DNA from: Candidatus Multivoradales bacterium
GTDB lineage: Bacteria; Acidobacteriota; Thermoanaerobaculia; Multivoradales; JAHEKO01
Length of the DNA stretch: 64,000 bases
NCBI GenBank assembly: GCA_965223855.1
Contig: CBDCXM010000008.1
Span: forward strand, 608,001-672,000
Reading direction: 5' to 3'
In this document: one piece after another, positions 13,947-22,439 of the stretch
Numbering within the stretch: position 1 is the stretch's first letter
Layout of the letters: each line of letters opens with the position of its first letter
Made by a program: the position numbers and the translations under genes
The notes under the pieces: model-generated
Database searches by the model: none
What the model was told of the DNA's origin: nothing
Seen by the model: only the letters and a program-made list of their open reading frames with translations

Positions 13947-14859
13947 CCGCCGCCGCCTCCCTCTCGCTCACGATCGAATCGTAGAGAAAGGCGACCACGG
14001 CATCCGGCGGCAGGAACGAAGTCCACTCCTCGTCCCACGGTGCGGTCGGCTTGGCGGCGATCACCTCTTCGCGGCTCTTGCCGGCCGCGACGAGCGGGCT
14101 GATGGCGTCGTGAAGCTCCTGCATCAACGCCCTGTAGGCCACCAGGTCCGCCTTCGTCGACAGCGGTCCATGACCGGGAATGATCCGTGTCTCGTCGTCG
14201 ATCATCCCGAGCACCGCGTCGGCGTGGCGGATCATCCCGGCGAGGGTGCCTCCGGTGCCGACGTCGATGAACGGGTACATCCCGGCGAACATCGTGTCGC
14301 CGAGGTGAACGACGTTGTCCTCCACGAAGTGAACGATCGAATCGCCGTCGGTGTGGGCGCTGCCCTCGAGGTGGAGAATGCGGATCGTGCGGCCGTCGAG
14401 GTGGAAGGTCATCGACTCACGGAACGTCAGCGCCGGCTTGGCGACTTCGGGGGCCGCGTCGGTCCGCATGTCGAACGTCTCGATGTACTGCGGCGCCGAC
14501 ATCTTCTCGCGCACGTTCTCGTGGCCGACGATCCACACCCCCGCCTGACCGAGGTTCTCGTTGCCGCCGGTGTGATCGCCGTGCCAGTGCGTGTTGAGGA
14601 CGAAGTCGATCGGCCGGTCGGTCACCGCTGCGACCGCCTCGAGGATCGCCTCCGTCGCCGGCGCGTACTGGTCGTCGATCAGGAACGTCGCCGACGGGCC
14701 GACGGCGAGGCCGATGTTGCCGCCTCTGCCGGCGAGCATGTAGATCCCCTCCGCCACCTCCTCGGTCGTGATCTCCGGCGCCTCCTGGCCGAAGGCCGCC
14801 GTCGCCGGAACTGTCGCCAGAACGAGAGTCGAAACCGCTGCTGCGAAACTTCGCTTCAT
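13939..14859 (-). CDS. Secreted MBL-fold metallo-hydrolase (cyclase-like)
   Basis: Signal peptide; NTHWHGDHTGGN, AHTDGD and IIPGHG motifs. Confidence 0.85.
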   Translation of the reverse strand: MKRSFAAAVSTLVLATVPATAAFGQEAPEITTEEVAEGIYMLAGRGGNIGLAVGPSATFLIDDQYAPATEAILEAVAAVTDRPIDFVLNTHWHGDHTGGNENLGQAGVWIVGHENVREKMSAPQYIETFDMRTDAAPEVAKPALTFRESMTFHLDGRTIRILHLEGSAHTDGDSIVHFVEDNVVHLGDTMFAGMYPFIDVGTGGTLAGMIRHADAVLGMIDDETRIIPGHGPLSTKADLVAYRALMQELHDAISPLVAAGKSREEVIAAKPTAPWDEEWTSFLPPDAVVAFLYDSIVSEREAAAGE

Positions 14860-14963
14860 TGTGCACTCCTCCTGCGCCGATCATAGAGCCTGCCGTCGCC
14901 GCCTGCAGCCCACCCTCCATAAACAGCGATCAGTAAAGAGAATTTCGGCTGCGTCTGGAGCGT

Positions 14964-14992
14964 TTGACAAGCCCCGCCCGATCCTCCAACAT
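14964..14992 (+). promoter_or_regulatory. Putative sigma70-type promoter
   Basis: Perfect TTGACA at 14964-14969, 17-nt spacer, weak -10 CAACAT. Confidence 0.4.
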
Positions 14993-15116
14993 ACCCTCCA
15001 TGCGAAGAATCCACGTTCCCGACAATGTGGCAACCACCGACGGATCAGGGCGGTCCGCGGGGTTGGGCGAGGTGGGGCTCGCCATCAAGGGGTACGCCCA
15101 GAAAGGAGGTGGTCCT

Positions 15117-15161
15117 GTGGAGTTACATCAACCAGGTTTTGTGGAGGTGGCGACCCGTTAG
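15117..15161 (+). CDS. Candidate 14-aa peptide MELHQPGFVEVATR
   Basis: GTG follows the AAAGGAGGT SD by 6 nt; in frame with upstream ATG 15000 (53-aa alternative). Confidence 0.35.
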   Translation: MELHQPGFVEVATR

Positions 15162-15238
15162 CGGGTACCTCCAACGCCTCCGTGGTTCTGGAGCCCCGTG
15201 ATTCGCGGGAAACCCCTCGCCACCGAGACAAACCAAGG

Positions 15239-15270
15239 AAGCCCCGGCCGGAAACGGCCGGGGCTTTTCT
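15239..15270 (+). terminator. Intrinsic terminator
   Basis: AAGCCCCGGCCG-GAAA-CGGCCGGGGCTT followed by TTCT; GNRA loop. Confidence 0.85.
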
Positions 15271-15279
15271 CGTTCCGGG

Positions 15280-15732
15280 CTAACGGTCCAGGAGAGACCG
15301 GATCTCGACCGGACCCTGGACGACGGCATGATCGTAGGCCGTCAGGCCGTCGTGATCGCGAAGCCCCAGACTCGTGCCGTGGTCGAGCAGCAGGCCGATC
15401 GTCCGCACGAAGATCGGATGCACCCGCTCCGCTTCCAGTTCCCCGCACGCGATCACAGCGTGCATGAGGGCGGTCATGCCCGAATCGTCCTGAGCGTCGG
15501 GATCGGCACCGGCAGCCAGCAGGTCTGCAACGACGAGAGCCTGCCCCCAGAAGCTCGCGGCCATGAGGGCAGTCGTTCCGTCCTCGTCACAGGAATCGAC
15601 ACTCGCGCCTTCCGCAAGGAGCCGCCTCACGACCTTCCTGTCGCCAGACGATGCCGCATCGCACAGCTGCGAGCCGGAGGTGAACTGAGGAGTCGGAACC
15701 TCGACCGAGCGGAGACGCCGCTGAGCGGGCAT
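15280..15732 (-). CDS. Ankyrin-repeat protein
   Basis: DEDGTTALMAA, DDSGMTALMHA and DHDGLTAYDHA ankyrin motifs. Confidence 0.85.
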   Translation of the reverse strand: MPAQRRLRSVEVPTPQFTSGSQLCDAASSGDRKVVRRLLAEGASVDSCDEDGTTALMAASFWGQALVVADLLAAGADPDAQDDSGMTALMHAVIACGELEAERVHPIFVRTIGLLLDHGTSLGLRDHDGLTAYDHAVVQGPVEIRSLLDR

Positions 15733-16391: not shown

Positions 16392-19300
16392 TCACTCCGA
16401 AGGCGACACGGTGATCTCGTCGCCCGCCGAGAAGGCGGCAAACTCGGGCGCGTACATCGACTGCAGCGTCGCCGGGCCGACCCGGAAGGTACCGCCGAGG
16501 TTCGCCCGCAGACGGTAGCGCAGCGTGTACTCGCCCACCGGCAGCCACTCGAAGAAGAAGTCGGTGCCGCTGTCGCGGACCTGCTCGTACCAGCCGACGC
16601 CCGTGCCCCAGCGGTAGCCGGAACGCACCGCCTCCGGTTCGAGACCCGCCGCCCGCGGATCGCGCAGGTGAACGTATTCTGCCGCGTGGCTCGCACGGAT
16701 CGACAGCTCGACCTCGACCTGGTCTCCCGGCTCGAGAGTGGCCCCCGCCTCGATCGGCTCCAGGCGCCACTCGGTGCCGTCATGCGTGCGTCGCCAGTAA
16801 CGGCGCTCGACACCGAAGAAGTCGCTCGACGCTTCCTCGGGCATCGTCTCGGTCGAGTAGTGCCAGGTCGCCGAGGCGAAAAGCAGCCCGGGGGTGTCCT
16901 TCGTCACCGTCACCCGACCGTGACCGGGAGTGACCGCTTCACCCGCCACCACCCACTGCTGCTTGGCCGTGTCCGGATCGTCGGGAAGGAAATCGAAGCT
17001 CCGGCGCTCGCCGGCCAGCTCGACCGTGGCACGCTCCTCGACTCCGAGCTCCCCCTCGGCGGAGAGGTAGTGAATCAGGGAGTAGAGCACCTCCGCCGTG
17101 GCGCGGGTCGACTTCCAGTGGCTGAGCTTCTTGTTGAGCAACAGCCAGTGAACGAGGCCACGGCGCCGGGGATCGTCGCCGTCGAGTTCGCCGAGGACCC
17201 TCAGTGCGAAGGCGTGGGTCTCGATGGAGTCGTTGTACCAGAGCCAGGCGCGCTCTTCCGGGGCCCAGTAGGTGCCGAGATCCTCGGACTCCTTCGCCGA
17301 GTCCATGACGCTGTCGAACACGAGGCGCGCATCGCCCGATCGACCGGCCCGCTCGAGGGTCAGTGCGAGCTGCCCCTTGATGAGAGGCGAGTGGTTCTTC
17401 CAGTGGCGGAACGAGAGTTCGAGCATCCGCTCGCGATCGGCGGCCGTGAACACACCCCCGGTCCAGCTCTCGTCCGGGTAGCTCGACAGGACGAAGTTGA
17501 GCATCGTCATCAGCTCGTGCCCCCGCTCCTGCTCCTCCAGTTCCGCAATGAAGCGATCGAAGTAGTGCCGCCTGAGATAGCCCCAGGCGGGCTCGACCAG
17601 CTCCCGCGGCACGTCGACCCCGAACTCGAGCGCTCTCGACAGGCCGCCGAGGATGTAGAGGGTCATGTAGGGCGAGGGCGGCCCGCCCGGCCACCAGGGG
17701 AAGCCGCCGATCGCCGTCTGCGACTCGGTCAGCCGCGCCAGCGCCGCGTCCCGTTCTGCGCGGGCCACTTCGGGATCGAGAAGCCGGATGAGCCGCTCGT
17801 CGCCCGCCGCGCCTCCGGCGGCCGCGCCCAGCCACGGTGTCTCGACGAGCGCCATCGAGCGATTCGGATCGTCTCGATCCCACGGCTCGAGCCGGGTGTC
17901 GCGTTCGCTCAACCGGCGGCCGAGCTCGGCAACGAGCGGATGTGCTTCGAACACCTCGCGCACGATCCCGGTCGAAACGAAGCGGTTGAGCGTCTGCTCG
18001 GTGCACTCGTAGGGAAAATCGACCAGATACGGGAGCGCCGAGAGCACCGACTGAAAGAGCTGGCCGTCGAGGGTGACGACGAACTGTTCGTCGACTCGCG
18101 TCGCGTCACCGCCCTCCGCCAGAGCGGCGAACTCGAGCAGTCGCTCGGCGGTGCCGTCGAGCGCCGCGAAGCGCGACTCGATCAGGTGCACCCGCCCGGG
18201 CAGGAGCGGCAGCGGCCGCAGCTCGCCGTCGCTCCAGTCGCCGGCGGTGCCGACGGCGCGCACGGCCACCTCGCCGACGCCGTTGGGGGCCGCCACCGGC
18301 AGTGAGAACGTCTCGGCTTCTCCGGGGCCGAGCGCGAACGGAAGGTCGCTGCGCCGCGGCCCGTCGAGGTCGAACGCCGCCGCCACGCTCTCCTCGGTCT
18401 CGGGATCGAGAAGGTCGAAGTCCAGCCGGCCGGAGAGCGCCGACTCGCCGCTGTTCTGCACGACAACCCGCAGCTCGGCTCGATCGCCCTCCCTGAGGAA
18501 CCGTGGCAAGTACGGCCTTACCAGCAGATCCTTGGTCGTCCTCACCTGGCGCTCGAGCCGGCCGTAGTCGAGCTCCGTCGTCAGAGCGTGCACCCACACG
18601 CTCCACTCGGTCACCGAGTCGGGCACGGTGAACTCGAAGACGACCGAGCCGTCTTCGCCCGTCAGCAGGTGCGGCTCCCAGAAGGCGGTCTCCGAGAAGT
18701 CGGTGCGCAGTTCGGGTGCACCGGCATCGGTAGCTCCATCCTCCTCGATCTGCCCGCGCTCCGCCTCCCCGTCTGCCAGGTAGCCCAGCGCCTCGACGCC
18801 GTCCGACTGAGCCGCTACTTCCATCATCGCAGCGGGTGCTTCCACCGCCATCGGCGTCGGTGGTCCTCCCGCCCGGGCGAGCCGCCGGCCGGGCCCCCCG
18901 ATGCCGTAGTCATCGAACGCCTTCAAGCGATCGTCGCGGTAGTACGGCCGATCGGGAAGCGGCGACCAACCCTTCTCCCAGCGCAGCACCGGGTGCTGCG
19001 AGCCGAGCCCGCTCTGCCAGGCGTCGAGCCTCGCTCCCGTCCTGGCGAACGGAGCCGGCCGCGGCGGGGTGTGCGAGGCGAACAGATCGAGACTGCGGTC
19101 GAACATGTAGGCCAAGAGCTCCGCCGCCGCGGTGCCGAGAGACTCGCCGTCCGCGGTGGCCACCTCGATCCGCCAACGTTCTTCGTCTCCGGGCCGGAGC
19201 CGATCGCGGAAGGTCGAGAAACTCAGGCGGAGATCCTCGTCGCGCGGCGGCACCGCGACATGGGCGGTCATCGACAGCGGCTGGTAGTCGCGAACGGAGC

Positions 19301-22300
19301 GGAGCCGGAACTGCAGGCCGCCGACGTCCTCGGTCCCGACAGGCAGCTCGATCGTCTCGGGGTTCGGTCCCGCCTCGAAGTAGCGCACTTCCGGCTGCCG
19401 GCCGGGCCGGGCGATCTCGAGCGCCAGCCACTGCCCGGGGAAACCGGAGTGCACCAGGATCCTCGCCCGTTCTCCCACCGGCACCGTCCGGCGCTCGCTC
19501 TCGAGCAGCAGGGGGAGCGGCAGCGCGGCGTCGCCCGCGACGACAAACTCGACGCTGCGCTCGAAAGTCGAGCCGAAGGCGTCGTCGGTCGCGTAGTGGA
19601 GGCGGTAGGCACCGGCAACGAGGTCCGCCAGGGAGAGGACGGTAGCCCCGTCCTCGCCATGCTCGACGACGCCCGAAGAGTGCTCCGCTCCGTCGTCCCA
19701 CGAGCTGAGCATCCGCCCCGGCTGGAGTCCCGAATCCCAACGGGGTCGGAGCTCATCTCCCTCGGTCCTGTAGTCGCCCTGCCCGGCGACCGGCATGTCG
19801 GTGGGCAGACGGGTGTCGTCGGGCTGGTCCAGAGCGACGAGCCGCCAACGCGCCGACCCCGCTCGCGCCACCCCGTCGAGGTCGGAACGCAGGATCCGGT
19901 AACTCATCGAACCGCCGGCGCCCCCACTCACCGTCGCGAATGCCCGCTCGGCAGTGAGGGTCGCCTCGACCGTGGTGAAGCCGAGGGTGAACGTCCGCTC
20001 GGCGGATCGGGTCTCGCCGCCGGCATCGGTGGCGTCGACCGACAGCCGGTAGCGGAAGCGGAGCCCTTCGCCCGCCTTGCGCTCGTCCGCCTCCGGCAGG
20101 AAGGTGACGGTGAACGCGCCGTCGGCATCGAGCGCTGCGACTCCGCCGGCCACCGTCTCGCGCTGGCCGACCGGCTGCGGACGCCACCAGCCCCACCAGT
20201 CCGGGTAGCGCGGCTCGCGGGTCACCGTCCAGCGGATCTCGCCGTCCACCAGTGGAGCGCCAAAGTAGTAGCGCGCTTCGCCGGCGAAGGTCGCCGTCCG
20301 GTTGAGCCGCAGCTCGGCCTCAGGCTCCTCGACGGTCACCTCGAAGGTGGGCCGCTTGTACTCCTCCACCTTCACCGGCGCCGAACCGTTCGGGGTCGCA
20401 CGCAACTGCCAGTCGCCGAGAAGCCTCCCCTGAGGCAGTTCGAAGCTGCCGGAGGCGCTGCCGAAGGAGTTGGCCTCGACGGTCGTGCTCGCCACAACCT
20501 CCCAGTTGGCATCCACCAGCTCGACGGTGATCTGGGAGCCCGGCAGCACGGTCTGGCGCTCCTCGGCCTCGACTCGCCGATAGGCGACCGCTTTCCACAG
20601 CACCTGCTGCCCCGGTCGGTAGACGCTGCGATCGGTGAAGAGGAGCACCTGCTCGGTGTCGCGAAGCCGCGGGGAGTACTCCGCGCGCAGCGAGACCTGC
20701 TGGAAGGCCAGCTCCTCACCGTGGCGGGCCACCAGCATGGCTGCGGCCCCTCGACTGGCCTTATGGACGAAGCGGGCGGCGCCCTCGTGGTCCGTCTCGC
20801 GGGCCGTCTGACGCCGGTGCCCGCGCCGGTAGTCGAGGCCCCAAAGCTCGACCTCGGCCCCCTCGACTGGATCGCCGCTCGCGCCGTCGCGCACCTCCGC
20901 CACGGTCAGCCCGGCGCGGCTCACGGAGTCGAGGACGATCGCGCTGCGGATCCAGTGGACCGCCTCGACCCGGTTGCGCCGGCGCGAGAAGGAGCGATCG
21001 GCCGAGGCCGCCACGAGCCACAGCCCGGGACGCGAAGAGGGAGGGACGACGTAGGTCTGATGCATCTCGAGGTCGGGCGTGGCCGGCAGATCGACCTCCC
21101 ACTCGAAGTCCGGCTTCGCACCGATGAGCCGGTCCTCGACCTCACGGCGCCCCGGGAGGAGCGAACGGTCGAGCCCCTCGGTAAGCGCCTCTTCGAGGTC
21201 GACCCACCAGGCCCGGAAGAACAGGCGGTCGAGATTGCGATGACGCACCAGGATCGAGCGCCGCTCGGGACCATCGACCAACATCGACTGGAGCGAGAAC
21301 GAAGGCGCCTCGAGCGCCGCGACAAGGTGGCGGCAATAACGTCCGCCGAAGCTGTCGGGATGGACGGCGGCCCCTTCCGCAGCGAGATCGCGGGCTCGCG
21401 CAAGGGCATCGTCTGCGCCGGAGTCGCGCGTCCATTCGGCCAGCAACGCCCGGCCCGTCGACCACCATTCGACGTCGCGACCGAGCCGCCCGAGGGCTCC
21501 CTCGAGGTCCGCCCGCAGCGCCTGCCGCTCCTCGGCCGAACTGAAGTGTGCCGCGAGCGCCTGCAGACGCGCCATCCGGGCATCGAGAGCGGCTTCCCCG
21601 CGGCCGCCCTCGAGGTGCCAGCGCTCCAGGTCGCCATAGAGCGCTGCAAGTCGAGCGAGCGGATGATCGTCGGTTGCGGCTCGGCCGGCGATCAACGCCT
21701 CGAGGTCGAGCCGATGGATCTGGTTCGAGTCGCTCGCGGACCAGTGAGCAGAGTTGGCCAGGAAGCCCGCCCACAGATGGGTTACCGAATCGCGCAGCGT
21801 GCCGCGAATGCGCTTCGGGAGATCGTTGGGCTCGAGGGTCCCCGCAAGGTCGGAGGTCGGCTCCAGCCCCCACGACTCCCGGTCCACCCACAGACTGAGG
21901 AAGGCATCGTCGATTTCGGCCGCCAGCTGCGCGCTCGTCCAGCGGGTGAAGTCGAGATCCCGGCGCTCACCACTGCGCTCCCGCTGACCGATCTCCCAGC
22001 CGTAGCGGCCGAGGTAGAGAACGAGCGTCTGCGCCCGCAGGAGTGCGCGAGCCCGGCTCGCTGCACCGACCTGGCCGGCCGTGCCGGTCGGCTCTGGCCA
22101 CGCGGCCGACTCCACCAACCGCACCGCTCCCTCGAACTCGCCGAGCGACGCGGTGAGCTGAGCCTCGCGCACCAGGGCGCGCGCCCAGTCGTCCTCGAGG
22201 CCGGCGGCAGCCGCAGCCTCGCGCAGCCGGCCGAGCTCCTCGACGGCAGCCTGGTGTTTCTGCTCCTCCACCAGGCGATCGACCGTCTGCCAGCGCTCCT

Positions 22301-22439
22301 CCAGGCTCATCGATCCCGACGGCTCCGGCGCCGCCGCGTGGCCGCTGCCGCAGCCCGCCGCCAACGCGGCCATGAGGGCGACGAAGCCCGTCGCCAGGAT
22401 GAAACTCCTCTGTCGGTTCTGCCGCATCGTCGCCTCCAC
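16392..22439 (-). CDS. Alpha-2-macroglobulin family lipoprotein (MG2 domain)
   Basis: LAAGC lipobox; FTDRSVYRPGQ, VEEYKRPTFEV, RTDFSETAFW and thioester motif YECTEQ; C-terminal SMYAPEF. Confidence 0.92.
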   Translation of the reverse strand: MEATMRQNRQRSFILATGFVALMAALAAGCGSGHAAAPEPSGSMSLEERWQTVDRLVEEQKHQAAVEELGRLREAAAAAGLEDDWARALVREAQLTASLGEFEGAVRLVESAAWPEPTGTAGQVGAASRARALLRAQTLVLYLGRYGWEIGQRERSGERRDLDFTRWTSAQLAAEIDDAFLSLWVDRESWGLEPTSDLAGTLEPNDLPKRIRGTLRDSVTHLWAGFLANSAHWSASDSNQIHRLDLEALIAGRAATDDHPLARLAALYGDLERWHLEGGRGEAALDARMARLQALAAHFSSAEERQALRADLEGALGRLGRDVEWWSTGRALLAEWTRDSGADDALARARDLAAEGAAVHPDSFGGRYCRHLVAALEAPSFSLQSMLVDGPERRSILVRHRNLDRLFFRAWWVDLEEALTEGLDRSLLPGRREVEDRLIGAKPDFEWEVDLPATPDLEMHQTYVVPPSSRPGLWLVAASADRSFSRRRNRVEAVHWIRSAIVLDSVSRAGLTVAEVRDGASGDPVEGAEVELWGLDYRRGHRRQTARETDHEGAARFVHKASRGAAAMLVARHGEELAFQQVSLRAEYSPRLRDTEQVLLFTDRSVYRPGQQVLWKAVAYRRVEAEERQTVLPGSQITVELVDANWEVVASTTVEANSFGSASGSFELPQGRLLGDWQLRATPNGSAPVKVEEYKRPTFEVTVEEPEAELRLNRTATFAGEARYYFGAPLVDGEIRWTVTREPRYPDWWGWWRPQPVGQRETVAGGVAALDADGAFTVTFLPEADERKAGEGLRFRYRLSVDATDAGGETRSAERTFTLGFTTVEATLTAERAFATVSGGAGGSMSYRILRSDLDGVARAGSARWRLVALDQPDDTRLPTDMPVAGQGDYRTEGDELRPRWDSGLQPGRMLSSWDDGAEHSSGVVEHGEDGATVLSLADLVAGAYRLHYATDDAFGSTFERSVEFVVAGDAALPLPLLLESERRTVPVGERARILVHSGFPGQWLALEIARPGRQPEVRYFEAGPNPETIELPVGTEDVGGLQFRLRSVRDYQPLSMTAHVAVPPRDEDLRLSFSTFRDRLRPGDEERWRIEVATADGESLGTAAAELLAYMFDRSLDLFASHTPPRPAPFARTGARLDAWQSGLGSQHPVLRWEKGWSPLPDRPYYRDDRLKAFDDYGIGGPGRRLARAGGPPTPMAVEAPAAMMEVAAQSDGVEALGYLADGEAERGQIEEDGATDAGAPELRTDFSETAFWEPHLLTGEDGSVVFEFTVPDSVTEWSVWVHALTTELDYGRLERQVRTTKDLLVRPYLPRFLREGDRAELRVVVQNSGESALSGRLDFDLLDPETEESVAAAFDLDGPRRSDLPFALGPGEAETFSLPVAAPNGVGEVAVRAVGTAGDWSDGELRPLPLLPGRVHLIESRFAALDGTAERLLEFAALAEGGDATRVDEQFVVTLDGQLFQSVLSALPYLVDFPYECTEQTLNRFVSTGIVREVFEAHPLVAELGRRLSERDTRLEPWDRDDPNRSMALVETPWLGAAAGGAAGDERLIRLLDPEVARAERDAALARLTESQTAIGGFPWWPGGPPSPYMTLYILGGLSRALEFGVDVPRELVEPAWGYLRRHYFDRFIAELEEQERGHELMTMLNFVLSSYPDESWTGGVFTAADRERMLELSFRHWKNHSPLIKGQLALTLERAGRSGDARLVFDSVMDSAKESEDLGTYWAPEERAWLWYNDSIETHAFALRVLGELDGDDPRRRGLVHWLLLNKKLSHWKSTRATAEVLYSLIHYLSAEGELGVEERATVELAGERRSFDFLPDDPDTAKQQWVVAGEAVTPGHGRVTVTKDTPGLLFASATWHYSTETMPEEASSDFFGVERRYWRRTHDGTEWRLEPIEAGATLEPGDQVEVELSIRASHAAEYVHLRDPRAAGLEPEAVRSGYRWGTGVGWYEQVRDSGTDFFFEWLPVGEYTLRYRLRANLGGTFRVGPATLQSMYAPEFAAFSAGDEITVSPSE

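What the first reader, a model, noticed from the sequence alone, without database searches (positions are those of the whole stretch)
14964..15270. Stand-alone small transcript with 16-nt complementarity to the 16S rRNA 3' tail
Seen: TTGACA upstream, a strong terminator downstream, and no long ORF between. AGAAAGGAGGTGGTCC (15100-15115) pairs with the canonical 16S 3' end GGAUCACCUCCUUUCU over 16 nt with one G-U, far longer than a normal SD. It precedes GTG and a 14-codon ORF (MELHQPGFVEVATR). Inference: a ribosome-capturing or titrating RNA, or a tightly controlled micro-peptide mRNA. I recognise no family for it.
Basis: partly seen in the sequence, partly recalled or inferred. Interest (0 to 1): 0.72.

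Follow-up and report, generated by a model that had tools for sequence, protein, structure and literature searches.

The report
Conserved small RNA with ribosome-grabbing mini-gene
This is a real, stand-alone small RNA gene whose 14-codon mini-gene sits behind the strongest ribosome-binding site in the genome, and it belongs to a little-studied family found in several bacterial phyla whose function is still unknown.

Summary
Window 15100-15115 pairs over 16 nt (one G-U) with this genome's own 16S 3' tail. Apart from the antisense of the rDNA, it is the only such site in 4.52 Mb.

The element is a single-copy, roughly 270-nt gene with its own promoter (14964-14992) and terminator (15239-15275). 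A model of its core finds one copy in 27 of 41 related genomes. Its structure covaries: a 5' pseudoknot domain, and a long-range helix that pairs the ORF's 3' half with a strand next to the terminator.

The 14-codon ORF (15117-15161) keeps its start, frame and stop (E-V-A-x-x-stop in 23 of 24 relatives). Its N-terminal codons show no amino-acid-level selection. So translation, not the peptide, seems to be what is selected.

It passes no Rfam threshold. It is a remote relative of Ms_IGR-5 (Actinobacteria) and resembles CC2171 (Alphaproteobacteria) in design. Both are sRNAs of unknown function. The same SD, ORF register and helix recur in 73 of 80 loci from several phyla.

The mechanism is inferred, not shown: a translation-coupled RNA switch that reports on or buffers ribosome or termination capacity. 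No RNA data exist for this genome.

The parts
14964..14992 (+). Promoter: -35 TTGACA (14964-14969), a 17-nt spacer, and a -10-like CAACAT (14987-14992). The predicted transcription start is near 15000.
   Evidence: Sequence. Exact TTGACA lies 133-153 nt upstream of GGAGG in 21 of 24 homologs, with CAnnAT 17-18 nt downstream. The start site is inferred, not mapped.
15011..15030 (+). 5' hairpin CCACGTT...AATGTGG. It is kept only in the closest relatives.
   Evidence: MFE fold and upstream sequences of the homologs. This stretch varies outside the genus.
15032..15101 (+). 5' domain. P1 is 15032-15037 with 15059-15064. P1a is 15042-15044 with 15054-15056. P2 is 15066-15071 with 15078-15083. A pseudoknot pairs loop 15046-15052 with 15095-15101, directly 5' of the SD.
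   Evidence: Alignment A1, RNAalifold and pair counts. P1 has 5 of 6 pairs changed on both sides and P1a has 3 of 3. The pseudoknot has 2 covarying pairs and is 91.3% paired. This domain is missing from the actinobacterial and most other lineages.
15100..15115 (+). Extended Shine-Dalgarno AGAAAGGAGGTGGTCC. It is complementary to the whole free 16S 3' tail (16 nt, one G-U).
   Evidence: unique in the genome. It is conserved, with only pairing-preserving A<->G changes.
15117..15161 (+). Micro-ORF: GTG start 7 nt after GGAGG, 14 sense codons (MELHQPGFVEVATR), and a TAG stop in a hairpin loop.
   Evidence: all 24 homologs start with GTG, 23 of 24 end E-V-A-x-x-stop, and lengths are 13, 14 or 15 aa; the start is in frame in 67 of 73 cross-phylum loci; no codon periodicity in codons 2-7.
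15143..15152 (+). In-ORF SD-like GGAGGTGGCG (codons E-V-A). It is invariant, and its GAGGTG ends 6 nt before the last sense codon.
   Evidence: Invariant in 23 of 23 rows of A1. The register to the stop is fixed in 71 of 80 pattern loci. The spacing argument is inference.
15135..15153 (+). 5' strands of the long-range helix: GGTTT (15135-15139) and GGTGGCGA (15146-15153), inside the ORF.
   Evidence: helices 5 and 6 are 93.9% and 97.8% paired, and the pair 134/210 reads UA 8, AU 7, GC 3. The same helix covaries in Actinobacteria.
15153..15166 (+). Stop-codon hairpin ACCCG-TTAG-CGGGT.
   Evidence: Sequence and alignments. The stop varies (TAG, TAA, TGA) at the same place. The pairs were not counted because MAFFT aligns the loop inconsistently.
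15167..15216 (+). Variable inner domain with CCTCC motifs (15167-15172, 15176-15181), a small hairpin, and the conserved GGGAAACCCC.
   Evidence: The small CCC/GGG hairpin is 92.6% paired. Its role is unknown.
15217..15234 (+). 3' strands of the long-range helix: TCGCCACC (15217-15224) and AAACC (15230-15234).
15239..15275 (+). Intrinsic terminator: a 12-bp GC-rich stem (15239-15266) and a U-rich tail. It may also end the convergent ankyrin gene (15280-15732, minus strand).
   Evidence: the scan scored the hairpin on the minus strand; helix 8 has 6 of 10 pairs changed on both sides and is 95.2% paired. One search gives the flanking gene.

Best explanation
What it is: a stand-alone, single-copy gene for a structured RNA of about 270 nt (about 15000-15275, plus strand) that is also a tiny mRNA.

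Shown or strongly supported by comparison:
- It has its own promoter and terminator.
- A covarying 5' pseudoknot domain ends exactly at the SD.
- The SD pairs with the entire free 3' tail of this genome's 16S rRNA.
- A 14-codon ORF keeps its start, reading frame and stop position under selection.
- A long-range helix locks the ORF's last codons (GGUUU..GGUGGCG) to a strand next to the terminator.
- It is a remote, 5'-extended relative of the sRNA family Rfam calls Ms_IGR-5. The same SD / E-V-A-x-x-stop ORF / helix design occurs in several phyla.

Inferred mechanism:
1. 30S subunits are captured by the extreme SD.
2. The ribosome translates the short frame and must melt the long-range helix to do so.
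3. When the stop codon reaches the A site, the in-ORF GGAGGUG lies 6 nt upstream of the P-site codon. That is the spacing at which the ribosome's anti-SD can re-pair, so the terminating ribosome is probably held for a time.
4. The RNA therefore toggles between a closed (untranslated) and an open (ribosome-occupied) form.
5. Its conformation, lifetime or partner binding then reports on, or buffers, the supply of free ribosomes or of termination capacity.

The peptide itself is probably a by-product.
For: - Uniqueness of the SD in the genome. Own 16S tail.
- Conservation: 27 of 41 related genomes have exactly one hit to model R1, and 19 of the 30 high-quality genomes do. BLAST gave 26 of 41.
- Promoter kept in 21 of 24. 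Neighbouring genes are shared only within subclades.
- Structure: 93.1% of cells paired and 23 of 48 pairs changed on both sides. 0 of 500 shuffles reach this, and slid controls give 36-55%.
- Translation, within the order: GTG start in 24 of 24, E-V-A-x-x-stop in 23 of 24, and length changes only by whole codons.
- Translation, across phyla: 73 of 80 pattern loci have a stop 4-6 codons after GAG, and 71 have it at exactly 5. A canonical start is in frame in 67 of 73, against 4 and 0 for the other two frames. The SD-to-GAG distance takes every value modulo 3.
- Selection on pairing with the very 3' end of 16S, at positions outside my search pattern: G in 70 of 72, purine in 72 of 72 and 72 of 72.
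- The peptide is not the target: codon positions 1, 2 and 3 of codons 2-7 vary equally (entropy 1.05, 1.08, 1.18). The E-V-A codons never vary at synonymous sites and are base-paired.
- Kinship with Ms_IGR-5: RF02471 scores 20.2 bits over its full length, E 0.006. Model R1 was built only from this order. Its best genome-wide hit is the Ms_IGR-5 locus in 3 of 3 actinobacterial genomes, with E 3e-4, 0.014 and 0.15.
- Ribosome footprints on Ms_IGR-5 homologs in M. abscessus and M. smegmatis are reported in PMC4974804 (passage read).
Against: - No transcript, ribosome-occupancy or phenotype data exist for this genome. No RNA run holds the sequence.
- The holding of the terminating ribosome, the two-state switch and any downstream effect are all inference.
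- One homolog (L007 / G012) has the stop out of frame. One planctomycete locus (L067) carries a similar-sized ORF in another frame.
- The element was not found in 14 of 41 related genomes, three of them 100% complete, so it is dispensable.
- The reciprocal hits to Ms_IGR-5 are weak in E-value. R1 failed on the Leptospira and Blastocatellia genomes.
- The cross-phylum ORF statistics come from loci selected with a pattern that already required GAGGTGGC. Many of those loci are related Actinobacteria, so the counts are not independent.
- In the MFE fold of the window copy the SD is paired with a downstream CCUCC, so access could be limited.
Confidence: 0.55

Rival explanations
1. It is an ordinary micro-protein gene. 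The 14-residue peptide (consensus M-[ED]-x-x-[KQ]-x-G-[LF]-[MV]-E-V-A-[ST]-[PSR]) is the functional product, and the RNA structure only tunes its expression.
For: Start, frame and stop are conserved. E-V-A is invariant, and G and L/F recur in the order. The very strong SD fits high expression.
Against: Codons 2-7 show no third-position excess of variation. Across phyla the peptide varies from 12 to 19 residues, and everything N-terminal to the last few residues before E-V-A differs between lineages. The invariant E-V-A codons are also invariant at synonymous sites and sit in a covarying helix, so RNA-level selection explains them. L067 uses another frame.
Confidence: 0.17
2. It is a non-translated 30S-binding RNA. 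The SD either acts as a STAB-SD-type protective cap for a base-pairing sRNA, or the RNA is a pure decoy that sequesters 30S subunits or the 16S tail.
For: The 16-nt complementarity is far beyond what initiation needs. In Actinobacteria and Alphaproteobacteria the SD lies about 10 nt from the -10 box, near the 5' end as in STAB-SD. The STAB-SD precedent is described in PMC4113751 (passages read).
Against: In-frame start codons and a fixed stop register have no reason to be kept without translation. In this subtype the SD lies about 100 nt from the predicted start, behind a structured domain. No RNase J, the exonuclease blocked by STAB-SD, was found in this 92%-complete genome: best hit 18.7 bits against a cut-off of 400. 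No convincing antisense target was found in the genome: best a 16-nt match, E 0.24.
Confidence: 0.13
3. It is a cis-acting leader (a leader-peptide attenuator) that controls read-through into a downstream gene.
For: The design, a short ORF plus helix plus terminator, resembles attenuators. In three Bryobacterales loci the element sits just upstream of rpmE. In Seohaeicola it sits upstream of a 139-aa RF-1-domain (ArfB-like) gene.
Against: In the window both flanking genes are on the other strand. Neighbours differ between subclades. In Actinomycetes the downstream gene is convergent. No conserved antiterminator pairing was seen. rpmE in the Bryobacterales loci is followed by opposite-strand genes.
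Confidence: 0.07
4. It is a chance SD-like string in an intergenic spacer, with a terminator that belongs to the convergent ankyrin gene and no function of its own.
For: The hairpin can also terminate the minus-strand gene. No expression data exist.
Against: It is the only such site in the genome. One copy occurs in 27 of 41 relatives at 59-155 bits. The structure covaries, the promoter is conserved, and the design recurs across phyla.
Confidence: 0.01

Closest known systems
Ms_IGR-5 sRNA (Rfam RF02471, Actinobacteria)
   Same: Extended SD AAGGAGGUGGUCC. A 12-14-codon ORF ending E-V-A-x-x-stop. A helix between GGUGGCnn and a distal strand next to the terminator. Stand-alone gene. The Rfam model aligns over its full length, and my order-only model finds the Ms_IGR-5 locus as its best hit in three actinobacterial genomes. 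Function unknown. Transcripts are reported in Streptomyces (PMC8079986 and PMC8780764, passages) and ribosome footprints in mycobacteria (PMC4974804, passage).
   Different: It scores 20.2 bits against a gathering score of 45. It carries an extra covarying 5' pseudoknot domain of about 100 nt. The start is always GTG directly after the SD. The helix strand is CGCCACC rather than CAGUCACC. It lies outside Actinobacteria. I found no paper describing the micro-ORF or the 16S complementarity of Ms_IGR-5.
CC2171 sRNA (Rfam RF01867, Alphaproteobacteria)
   Same: It begins GAAAGGAGGUGAUCC, with a start codon 7 nt after GGAGG, a short ORF and a terminator. It is a stand-alone gene. It is the best sub-threshold Rfam hit here (31.7 bits, E 2e-5). 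It is expressed in Methylorubrum and was first described in Caulobacter, with no known function (bioRxiv 10.1101/2022.01.24.477521, passages).
   Different: Gathering score is 75. The seven strongest class hits other than the Seohaeicola locus (two of them over gathering) have ORFs of 22-30 codons (MSH.., MSS..) without E-V-A-x-x-stop. Only the Seohaeicola locus is intermediate. Kinship beyond shared design is not shown.
STAB-SD 5' mRNA stabiliser (Bacillus thuringiensis cry3A)
   Same: An SD-like sequence with long complementarity to the 16S 3' end that binds 30S (PMC4113751, passages).
   Different: [quoted passage not shown] Here a start codon and frame are conserved, and no RNase J was found in the genome.
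Regulatory micro-ORFs in which ribosome position at a stop matters (RF2 frameshift site with its internal SD; TnaC-type leaders) - recalled, not from a call
   Same: A short frame, an SD-like element a few nucleotides before the decisive codon, and a stop-codon identity that matters. TAG is used in 57 of 73 loci and 19 of 23 in the order, against about 30% of long ORFs in this genome.
   Different: There is no frameshift site, no downstream gene in cis, and no known ligand. The parallel is an analogy only.

Membership tests
Ms_IGR-5 (RF02471) | Score at or above Rfam's gathering threshold (45 bits) | tested here: not met
   20.2 bits, E 0.006, aligned over model positions 1-184. 0 hits at gathering. 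Actinobacterial loci score 85-176 bits.
Ms_IGR-5 (RF02471) | Extended SD AAGGAGGUGRUCC near the 5' part of the RNA | tested here: met
   Window 15100-15115. The same motif appears in the model consensus and in the member loci.
Ms_IGR-5 (RF02471) | Short ORF ending GAG GUG GCN + 2 codons + stop. This feature was derived here from member loci; it is not part of Rfam's definition. | tested here: met
   Window ORF 15117-15161. The three loci that pass RF02471 at gathering (L044, L045, L103) all show it, as do the other Actinomycetota-labelled pattern loci apart from those lying inside long ORFs.
Ms_IGR-5 (RF02471) | Helix between the ORF's GGUGGCnn and a distal strand just 5' of the terminator | tested here: met
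   for this order. for Actinobacteria (TGTC/GRCA, TGCT/AGCA, TGCC/GGCA, TACG/CGTA).
Ms_IGR-5 (RF02471) | Reciprocal detection by a model built without actinobacterial sequences | tested here: inconclusive
   R1's best genome-wide hit is the Ms_IGR-5 locus in 3 of 3 actinobacterial genomes, but with E of 3e-4, 0.014 and 0.15.
CC2171 (RF01867) | Score at or above gathering (75 bits) | tested here: not met
   31.7 bits.
CC2171 (RF01867) | ORF of 22-30 codons beginning MSH/MSS/MSN, as seen in the seven strongest class hits other than the Seohaeicola locus | tested here: not met
   The window ORF has 14 codons and ends E-V-A-T-R.
STAB-SD stabiliser | An SD-like sequence that binds 30S but does not direct translation initiation | tested here: not met
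   A start codon 7 nt downstream and the frame are conserved. Translation itself could not be tested.
STAB-SD stabiliser | Protection against the 5'-3' exonuclease RNase J | tested here: not met
   No RNase J (TIGR00649) found in the own genome: 18.7 bits against a cut-off of 400, assembly 92% complete.
Leader-peptide transcription attenuator | A co-oriented regulated gene directly downstream | tested here: not met
   The downstream gene (ankyrin) is on the minus strand. Neighbours vary.
tmRNA | tRNA-like domain and tag frame recognised by ARAGORN or Rfam | tested here: not met
   ARAGORN found 0 genes in 14800-15450. Rfam gave none.

The most novel reading that the evidence does not exclude
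The element and its relatives (Ms_IGR-5, perhaps CC2171) may be one ancient, cross-phylum class of 'ribosome-probe' RNAs. A built-in test frame is initiated through pairing with the entire 16S 3' tail. It ends at a stop that is mostly RF1-read: TAG or TAA in 67 of 73 loci, although TGA closes about two thirds of long ORFs in this genome. There an in-frame SD re-captures the ribosome. Occupancy of this frame would open the long-range helix and set the RNA's activity or lifetime. That would give the cell a direct read-out of free-ribosome or RF1 termination capacity, a counterpart to RF2's autoregulatory frameshift that has never been found for RF1.
Probability: 0.15. Interest if true: 0.9.

Novelty: new variant of a known kind. 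Interest (0 to 1): 0.74.

Why it matters
Two 'orphan' sRNA families have sat in Rfam for years without a function, Ms_IGR-5 and possibly CC2171. This element shows that the design reaches well beyond Actinobacteria.

It also shows what is conserved:
- pairing with the whole 16S tail;
- a translated frame of fixed register whose peptide is free to vary;
- a helix that translation must open.

That turns a vague 'sRNA of unknown function' into a testable hypothesis about sensing or buffering of translation capacity. Genetically tractable carriers are available (M. smegmatis, Streptomyces). It also gives a concrete reason to re-read existing Ribo-seq data at these loci.

Tried and rejected
- **Rfam at gathering.** No hits on the whole window. 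The many sub-threshold hits other than CC2171 and Ms_IGR-5 (Spot 42, ncS037, F6 and others) rest on the terminator hairpin alone and were set aside.
- **Minus-strand RNA.** I considered an RNA that would mimic the 16S tail. The minus strand folds less well (z -3.1 against -4.3). The conserved promoter and U-tail are on the plus strand.
- **Gene context as a clue.** No neighbour is shared beyond subclades. Actinomycetes share deep synteny: a class IV aminotransferase upstream and, downstream and convergent, a protein that I recognised by eye as FABP/nitrobindin-like (recalled, not Pfam-tested). This gives no functional hint.
- **A link from rpmE to prfA in Bryobacterales.** Looked for and not found.
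- **Expression.** No RNA holder is listed for the window stretch.
- **Trans targets.** A short-word BLAST of the RNA against its own genome gave only chance-level matches. The best was 16 nt with E 0.24.
- **Intramolecular anti-SD.** I considered the distal strand pairing with the first SD, and the CCUCC motifs pairing with the SDs. Neither shows covariation, because the SDs never vary. RNAalifold's SD-sequestering pairs have no change on both sides. The competing pseudoknot has two.
- **Literature.** I found no paper on the micro-ORF, the 16S complementarity, or a function for Ms_IGR-5 or CC2171. I saw passages only of 10.1101/2022.01.24.477521, PMC8079986, PMC8780764, PMC4974804, PMC4633059, PMC9094748 and PMC4113751. 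PMC13009471 was seen only in the search listing.
- **Unpublished genome.** G005 (locus L017) is unpublished. It is one row in the alignments and in the counts.
- **Row dropped.** L024 (G031) was left out of A1 and A2 (23 of 24 rows) because its 3' half aligned poorly.
Full report
**1. The observation**

The sequence is as described.
- TTGACA is at 14964-14969.
- AGAAAGGAGGTGGTCC is at 15100-15115.
- GTG is at 15117-15119, 7 nt after GGAGG.
- A 14-codon frame (MELHQPGFVEVATR) ends with TAG at 15159-15161.
- A 12-bp GC-rich hairpin at 15239-15266 is followed by CTTTTCTCGTT.

The genome's single detected 16S gene ends ...CTGGATCACCTCCTTTCT. So the 16-nt complementarity with one G-U holds for this organism's own rRNA, not merely a textbook one.

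I scanned all of the roughly 18,800 GGAGG sites on both strands of the 4.52-Mb assembly (68% GC). Only two pair contiguously over all 16 positions: the antisense of the 16S gene itself and this site. It is the longest anti-16S match in the genome.

**2. A conserved, stand-alone gene**

- The stretch is single-copy in its genome.
- BLAST found it in 26 of 41 genomes of the same order. A few of those matches cover only the terminator.
- Covariance model R1 was built on the core of 23 homologs. It finds exactly one hit in 27 of 41 genomes (59-155 bits) and in 19 of the 30 high-quality ones.
- It finds none in 14 genomes, three of which are 100% complete. The gene is common but dispensable.
- An exact TTGACA lies 133-153 nt upstream of GGAGG in 21 of 24 homologs, followed 17-18 nt later by CAnnAT. 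Two more have TTGACG or TTGACT. This puts the start near window 15000 and the RNA at about 270 nt.
- The flanking genes in the window are an MBL-fold hydrolase and an ankyrin-repeat protein, both on the other strand.
- Neighbours are shared only within subclades.

This is therefore not a leader of a fixed downstream gene.

**3. RNA structure**

I aligned 23 of the 24 homologs (A1). L024 was left out because its 3' half aligned poorly. RNAalifold predicted 55 pairs, 22 of them with compensatory changes.

I then wrote my own structure of 48 pairs in 8 helices and counted it.
- 93.1% of cells are paired.
- 23 pairs have changes on both sides.
- 0 of 500 shuffles reach any of the five measures.
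- Slid controls give 36-55% paired.

The anatomy, 5' to 3', is:
- a variable 5' hairpin;
- a 5' domain (P1, P1a, P2) whose P1a loop forms a pseudoknot with ACGCCCAG, directly 5' of the SD. Two of its pairs covary: GAGCG/CGCUC and UAGGCG/CGCCUA;
- the SD and the ORF;
- a long-range helix that pairs GGUUU and GGUGGCGN inside the ORF with NCGCCACC...AAACC, 60-80 nt downstream. Its closing pair reads UA 8, AU 7, GC 3;
- the stop codon in the loop of a small hairpin;
- a variable inner domain;
- the terminator.

The plus strand folds better than shuffles (z -4.3).

**4. The micro-ORF is kept as a reading frame, but not as a peptide**

Within the order:
- All 24 homologs start with GTG. Spacing is 7 nt, and 10 nt in one case.
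- 23 of 24 end E-V-A-x-x-stop (TAG 19, TAA 3, TGA 1).
- Lengths are 14 aa (20 homologs), 15 aa (2) and 13 aa (1), so length changes are whole codons.
- L007 is the exception. Its stop is out of frame.

Evidence that the peptide is not what is selected:
- Codons 2-7 vary equally at positions 1, 2 and 3 (entropy 1.05, 1.08, 1.18). This is unlike a peptide under purifying selection.
- The E-V-A codons never change, even at synonymous sites, and lie in the covarying helix.

**5. The SD is selected for pairing with the whole 16S tail**

In the 24 homologs the 16-mer varies almost only by A<->G, at three positions that face a U of the rRNA. The few other changes are at its two end positions.

In 72 loci from other lineages I looked at the positions 5' of the part fixed by my search pattern.
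- The base facing the penultimate C of 16S is G in 70 of 72.
- The next two positions are purines in 72 of 72 each.
- The base facing the 3'-terminal U is a purine in 59 of 72.

**6. Relatives elsewhere**

Rfam gives nothing at gathering. Below threshold, two sRNA families align over their full length: CC2171 (31.7 bits, gathering 75) and Ms_IGR-5 (20.2 bits, gathering 45). The consensus of each begins with the same SD.

I scanned 185,579 species' genomes with a pattern (AGGAGGTGRTCC, 15-45 nt, GAGGTGGC).
- In 73 of the 80, a stop follows GAG by 4-6 codons. In 71 it follows by exactly 5.
- The other 7 are six hits inside long ORFs, plus one planctomycete locus (L067) with a similar-sized ORF in another frame.
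- A canonical start 3-14 nt after GGAGG is in frame and open in 67 of 73. The other two frames give 4 and 0. Meanwhile the SD-to-GAG distance runs from 25 to 45 nt and takes every value modulo 3.
- The peptides are 12-19 residues, ending ...(R)T(R)EVA-x-x.
- The carriers are mostly Actinomycetota. Loci are also labelled Acidimicrobiia, Rubrobacteraceae, Solirubrobacterales, several Acidobacteriota lineages, Leptospira, Seohaeicola and Syntrophobacter.

Rfam at gathering was run on 12 of the 80 pattern loci. Only the three loci from Mycobacterium, Micromonospora and Streptomyces passed Ms_IGR-5 (85-176 bits). The other nine passed nothing.

Reciprocally, R1 contains no actinobacterial sequence and was not built from the pattern. 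Its best genome-wide hit is exactly the Ms_IGR-5 locus in all three actinobacterial genomes tried (E 3e-4, 0.014, 0.15). It failed on the Leptospira and Blastocatellia genomes.

The long-range helix also covaries within Actinobacteria.

In the window's own phylum, 27 of 401 sampled genomes match the exact pattern. By my count of the table, the reversed control pattern matches 13.

I conclude that the element is a remote, 5'-extended relative of Ms_IGR-5.

CC2171 is less clear.
- Its model's best hits in the Seohaeicola and Syntrophobacter genomes are the pattern loci.
- Of 61 alphaproteobacterial genomes, 8 have a match at E up to 1e-5 and 2 are over gathering.
- Seven of those eight matches, all but the Seohaeicola locus, carry the same SD and start spacing but ORFs of 22-30 codons without E-V-A.
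- That is the same design, but homology is not shown.

**7. What is known about these families**

I read passages only.
- Ms_IGR-5 is confirmed by RNA-seq in S. lividans (PMC8079986).
- It is matched by an sRNA transcription unit in S. avermitilis (PMC8780764).
- Its homologs carry 'significant ribosomal reads' in M. abscessus and M. smegmatis (PMC4974804).

Six full-text searches found nothing on a function, the micro-ORF or the 16S complementarity. Supplements were closed.

**8. How it most likely works**

Shown by comparison:
- Selection acts on pairing with the 16S tail.
- Selection acts on initiation in one frame.
- Selection acts on the exact distance from GGAGGUGGC to the stop.
- Selection acts on a helix that a translating ribosome must open.

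Inferred:
- With the stop in the A site, GAGGUG ends 6 nt before the P-site codon. That is normal SD spacing, so the anti-SD can re-pair and hold the terminating ribosome.
- The RNA then alternates between a closed form and a ribosome-opened form.
- That state sets its lifetime or its interactions.

The stop is TAG in 57, TAA in 10 and TGA in 6 of the 73 loci, and TAG in 19 of 23 in the order. In this genome, 829 long ORFs end with TGA 550, TAG 247 and TAA 32. The flanks of the stop differ between lineages (G-UAG-G here, C-UAG-C in Actinobacteria). One structural motif therefore does not explain the bias. A link to RF1 is possible but untested, and related loci are not independent.

**9. Rivals**

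- **A functional micro-peptide.** argue against it.
- **A non-translated 30S decoy or STAB-SD-type cap** (PMC4113751). The conserved frame argues against it. So do the SD's distance from the 5' end in this subtype and the lack of RNase J in this 92%-complete genome.
- **A cis leader.** Gene context argues against it. Still, three Bryobacterales loci sit just upstream of rpmE, and the Seohaeicola locus sits upstream of an ArfB-like gene.
- **Chance.** This is excluded.

**10. Limits**

- There are no expression data for this genome.
- The cross-phylum counts come from a pattern-selected set rich in Actinobacteria.
- E-values from R1 are rough.
- G005 (L017), an unpublished genome, is one row in the order-level counts.

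**Verdict**

The element is a new, 5'-extended variant of a catalogued but unexplained sRNA family. The newly recognised conserved features make its function testable.

Noticed in passing
L084:854-1120, L096:4123-4368, L069:249-509 (Bryobacterales-labelled loci): In three loci the element's terminator is followed within about 100 nt by rpmE (ribosomal protein L31). L084 was confirmed with Pfam; the other two were judged by their N-terminal sequence. In the two loci I checked (L084, L096), rpmE is followed by opposite-strand genes.
   Followed up: partly
L082:4081-4500 (minus strand; Seohaeicola): The element lies directly upstream of a 139-aa RF-1-domain protein with a GGQ motif, which looks like the ribosome-rescue factor ArfB. 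This is one genome only.
   Followed up: partly
window 15159-15161 and homologs: There is a strong bias to TAG at the micro-ORF stop: 19 of 23 in the order and 57 of 73 across phyla. TGA closes about 66% of long ORFs in this genome.
   Followed up: partly
window 15112 (the G of GGTGGTCC): The G-U wobble variant (GGUGGUCC) is preferred over the perfect GGUGAUCC, in 20 of 24 in the order and 59 of 72 across phyla. This suggests a second, intramolecular partner or selection against a perfect duplex.
   Followed up: no
L007 (G012), about 1600-1640: In this one homolog the stop lies out of frame, so the micro-ORF runs on for more than 60 codons. It could be a sequencing error, a decaying copy, or tolerance of read-through.
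   Followed up: no
L067:5824-5990 (Planctomycetota-labelled MAG): This locus has the same SD, GGAGGTGGCG and a distal GUCACC strand. However, its ATG opens a 14-codon ORF in a different frame from E-V-A.
   Followed up: no
L070, L115: Among the 80 pattern loci, the only two seen to carry the window's 5' pseudoknot domain are MAGs labelled Fibrobacteraceae by their depositors. Loci labelled Acidobacteriota carry the short form without that domain. The window's own phylum could not be named.
   Followed up: no
window 16392-22439 (minus strand): the ORF listing shows a 2015-aa open frame close to the element. It was not examined.
   Followed up: no
window 15239-15266: The terminator hairpin is nearly symmetric and lies 14 nt from the stop of the convergent ankyrin gene (15280-15732). 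It may terminate both strands.
   Followed up: no
L044, L087, L103 and 10 other Actinomycetes loci: Ms_IGR-5 shows deep synteny. It sits between a class IV aminotransferase (same strand, upstream) and a convergent protein that I recognised by eye as FABP/nitrobindin-like (recalled, not Pfam-tested).
   Followed up: partly
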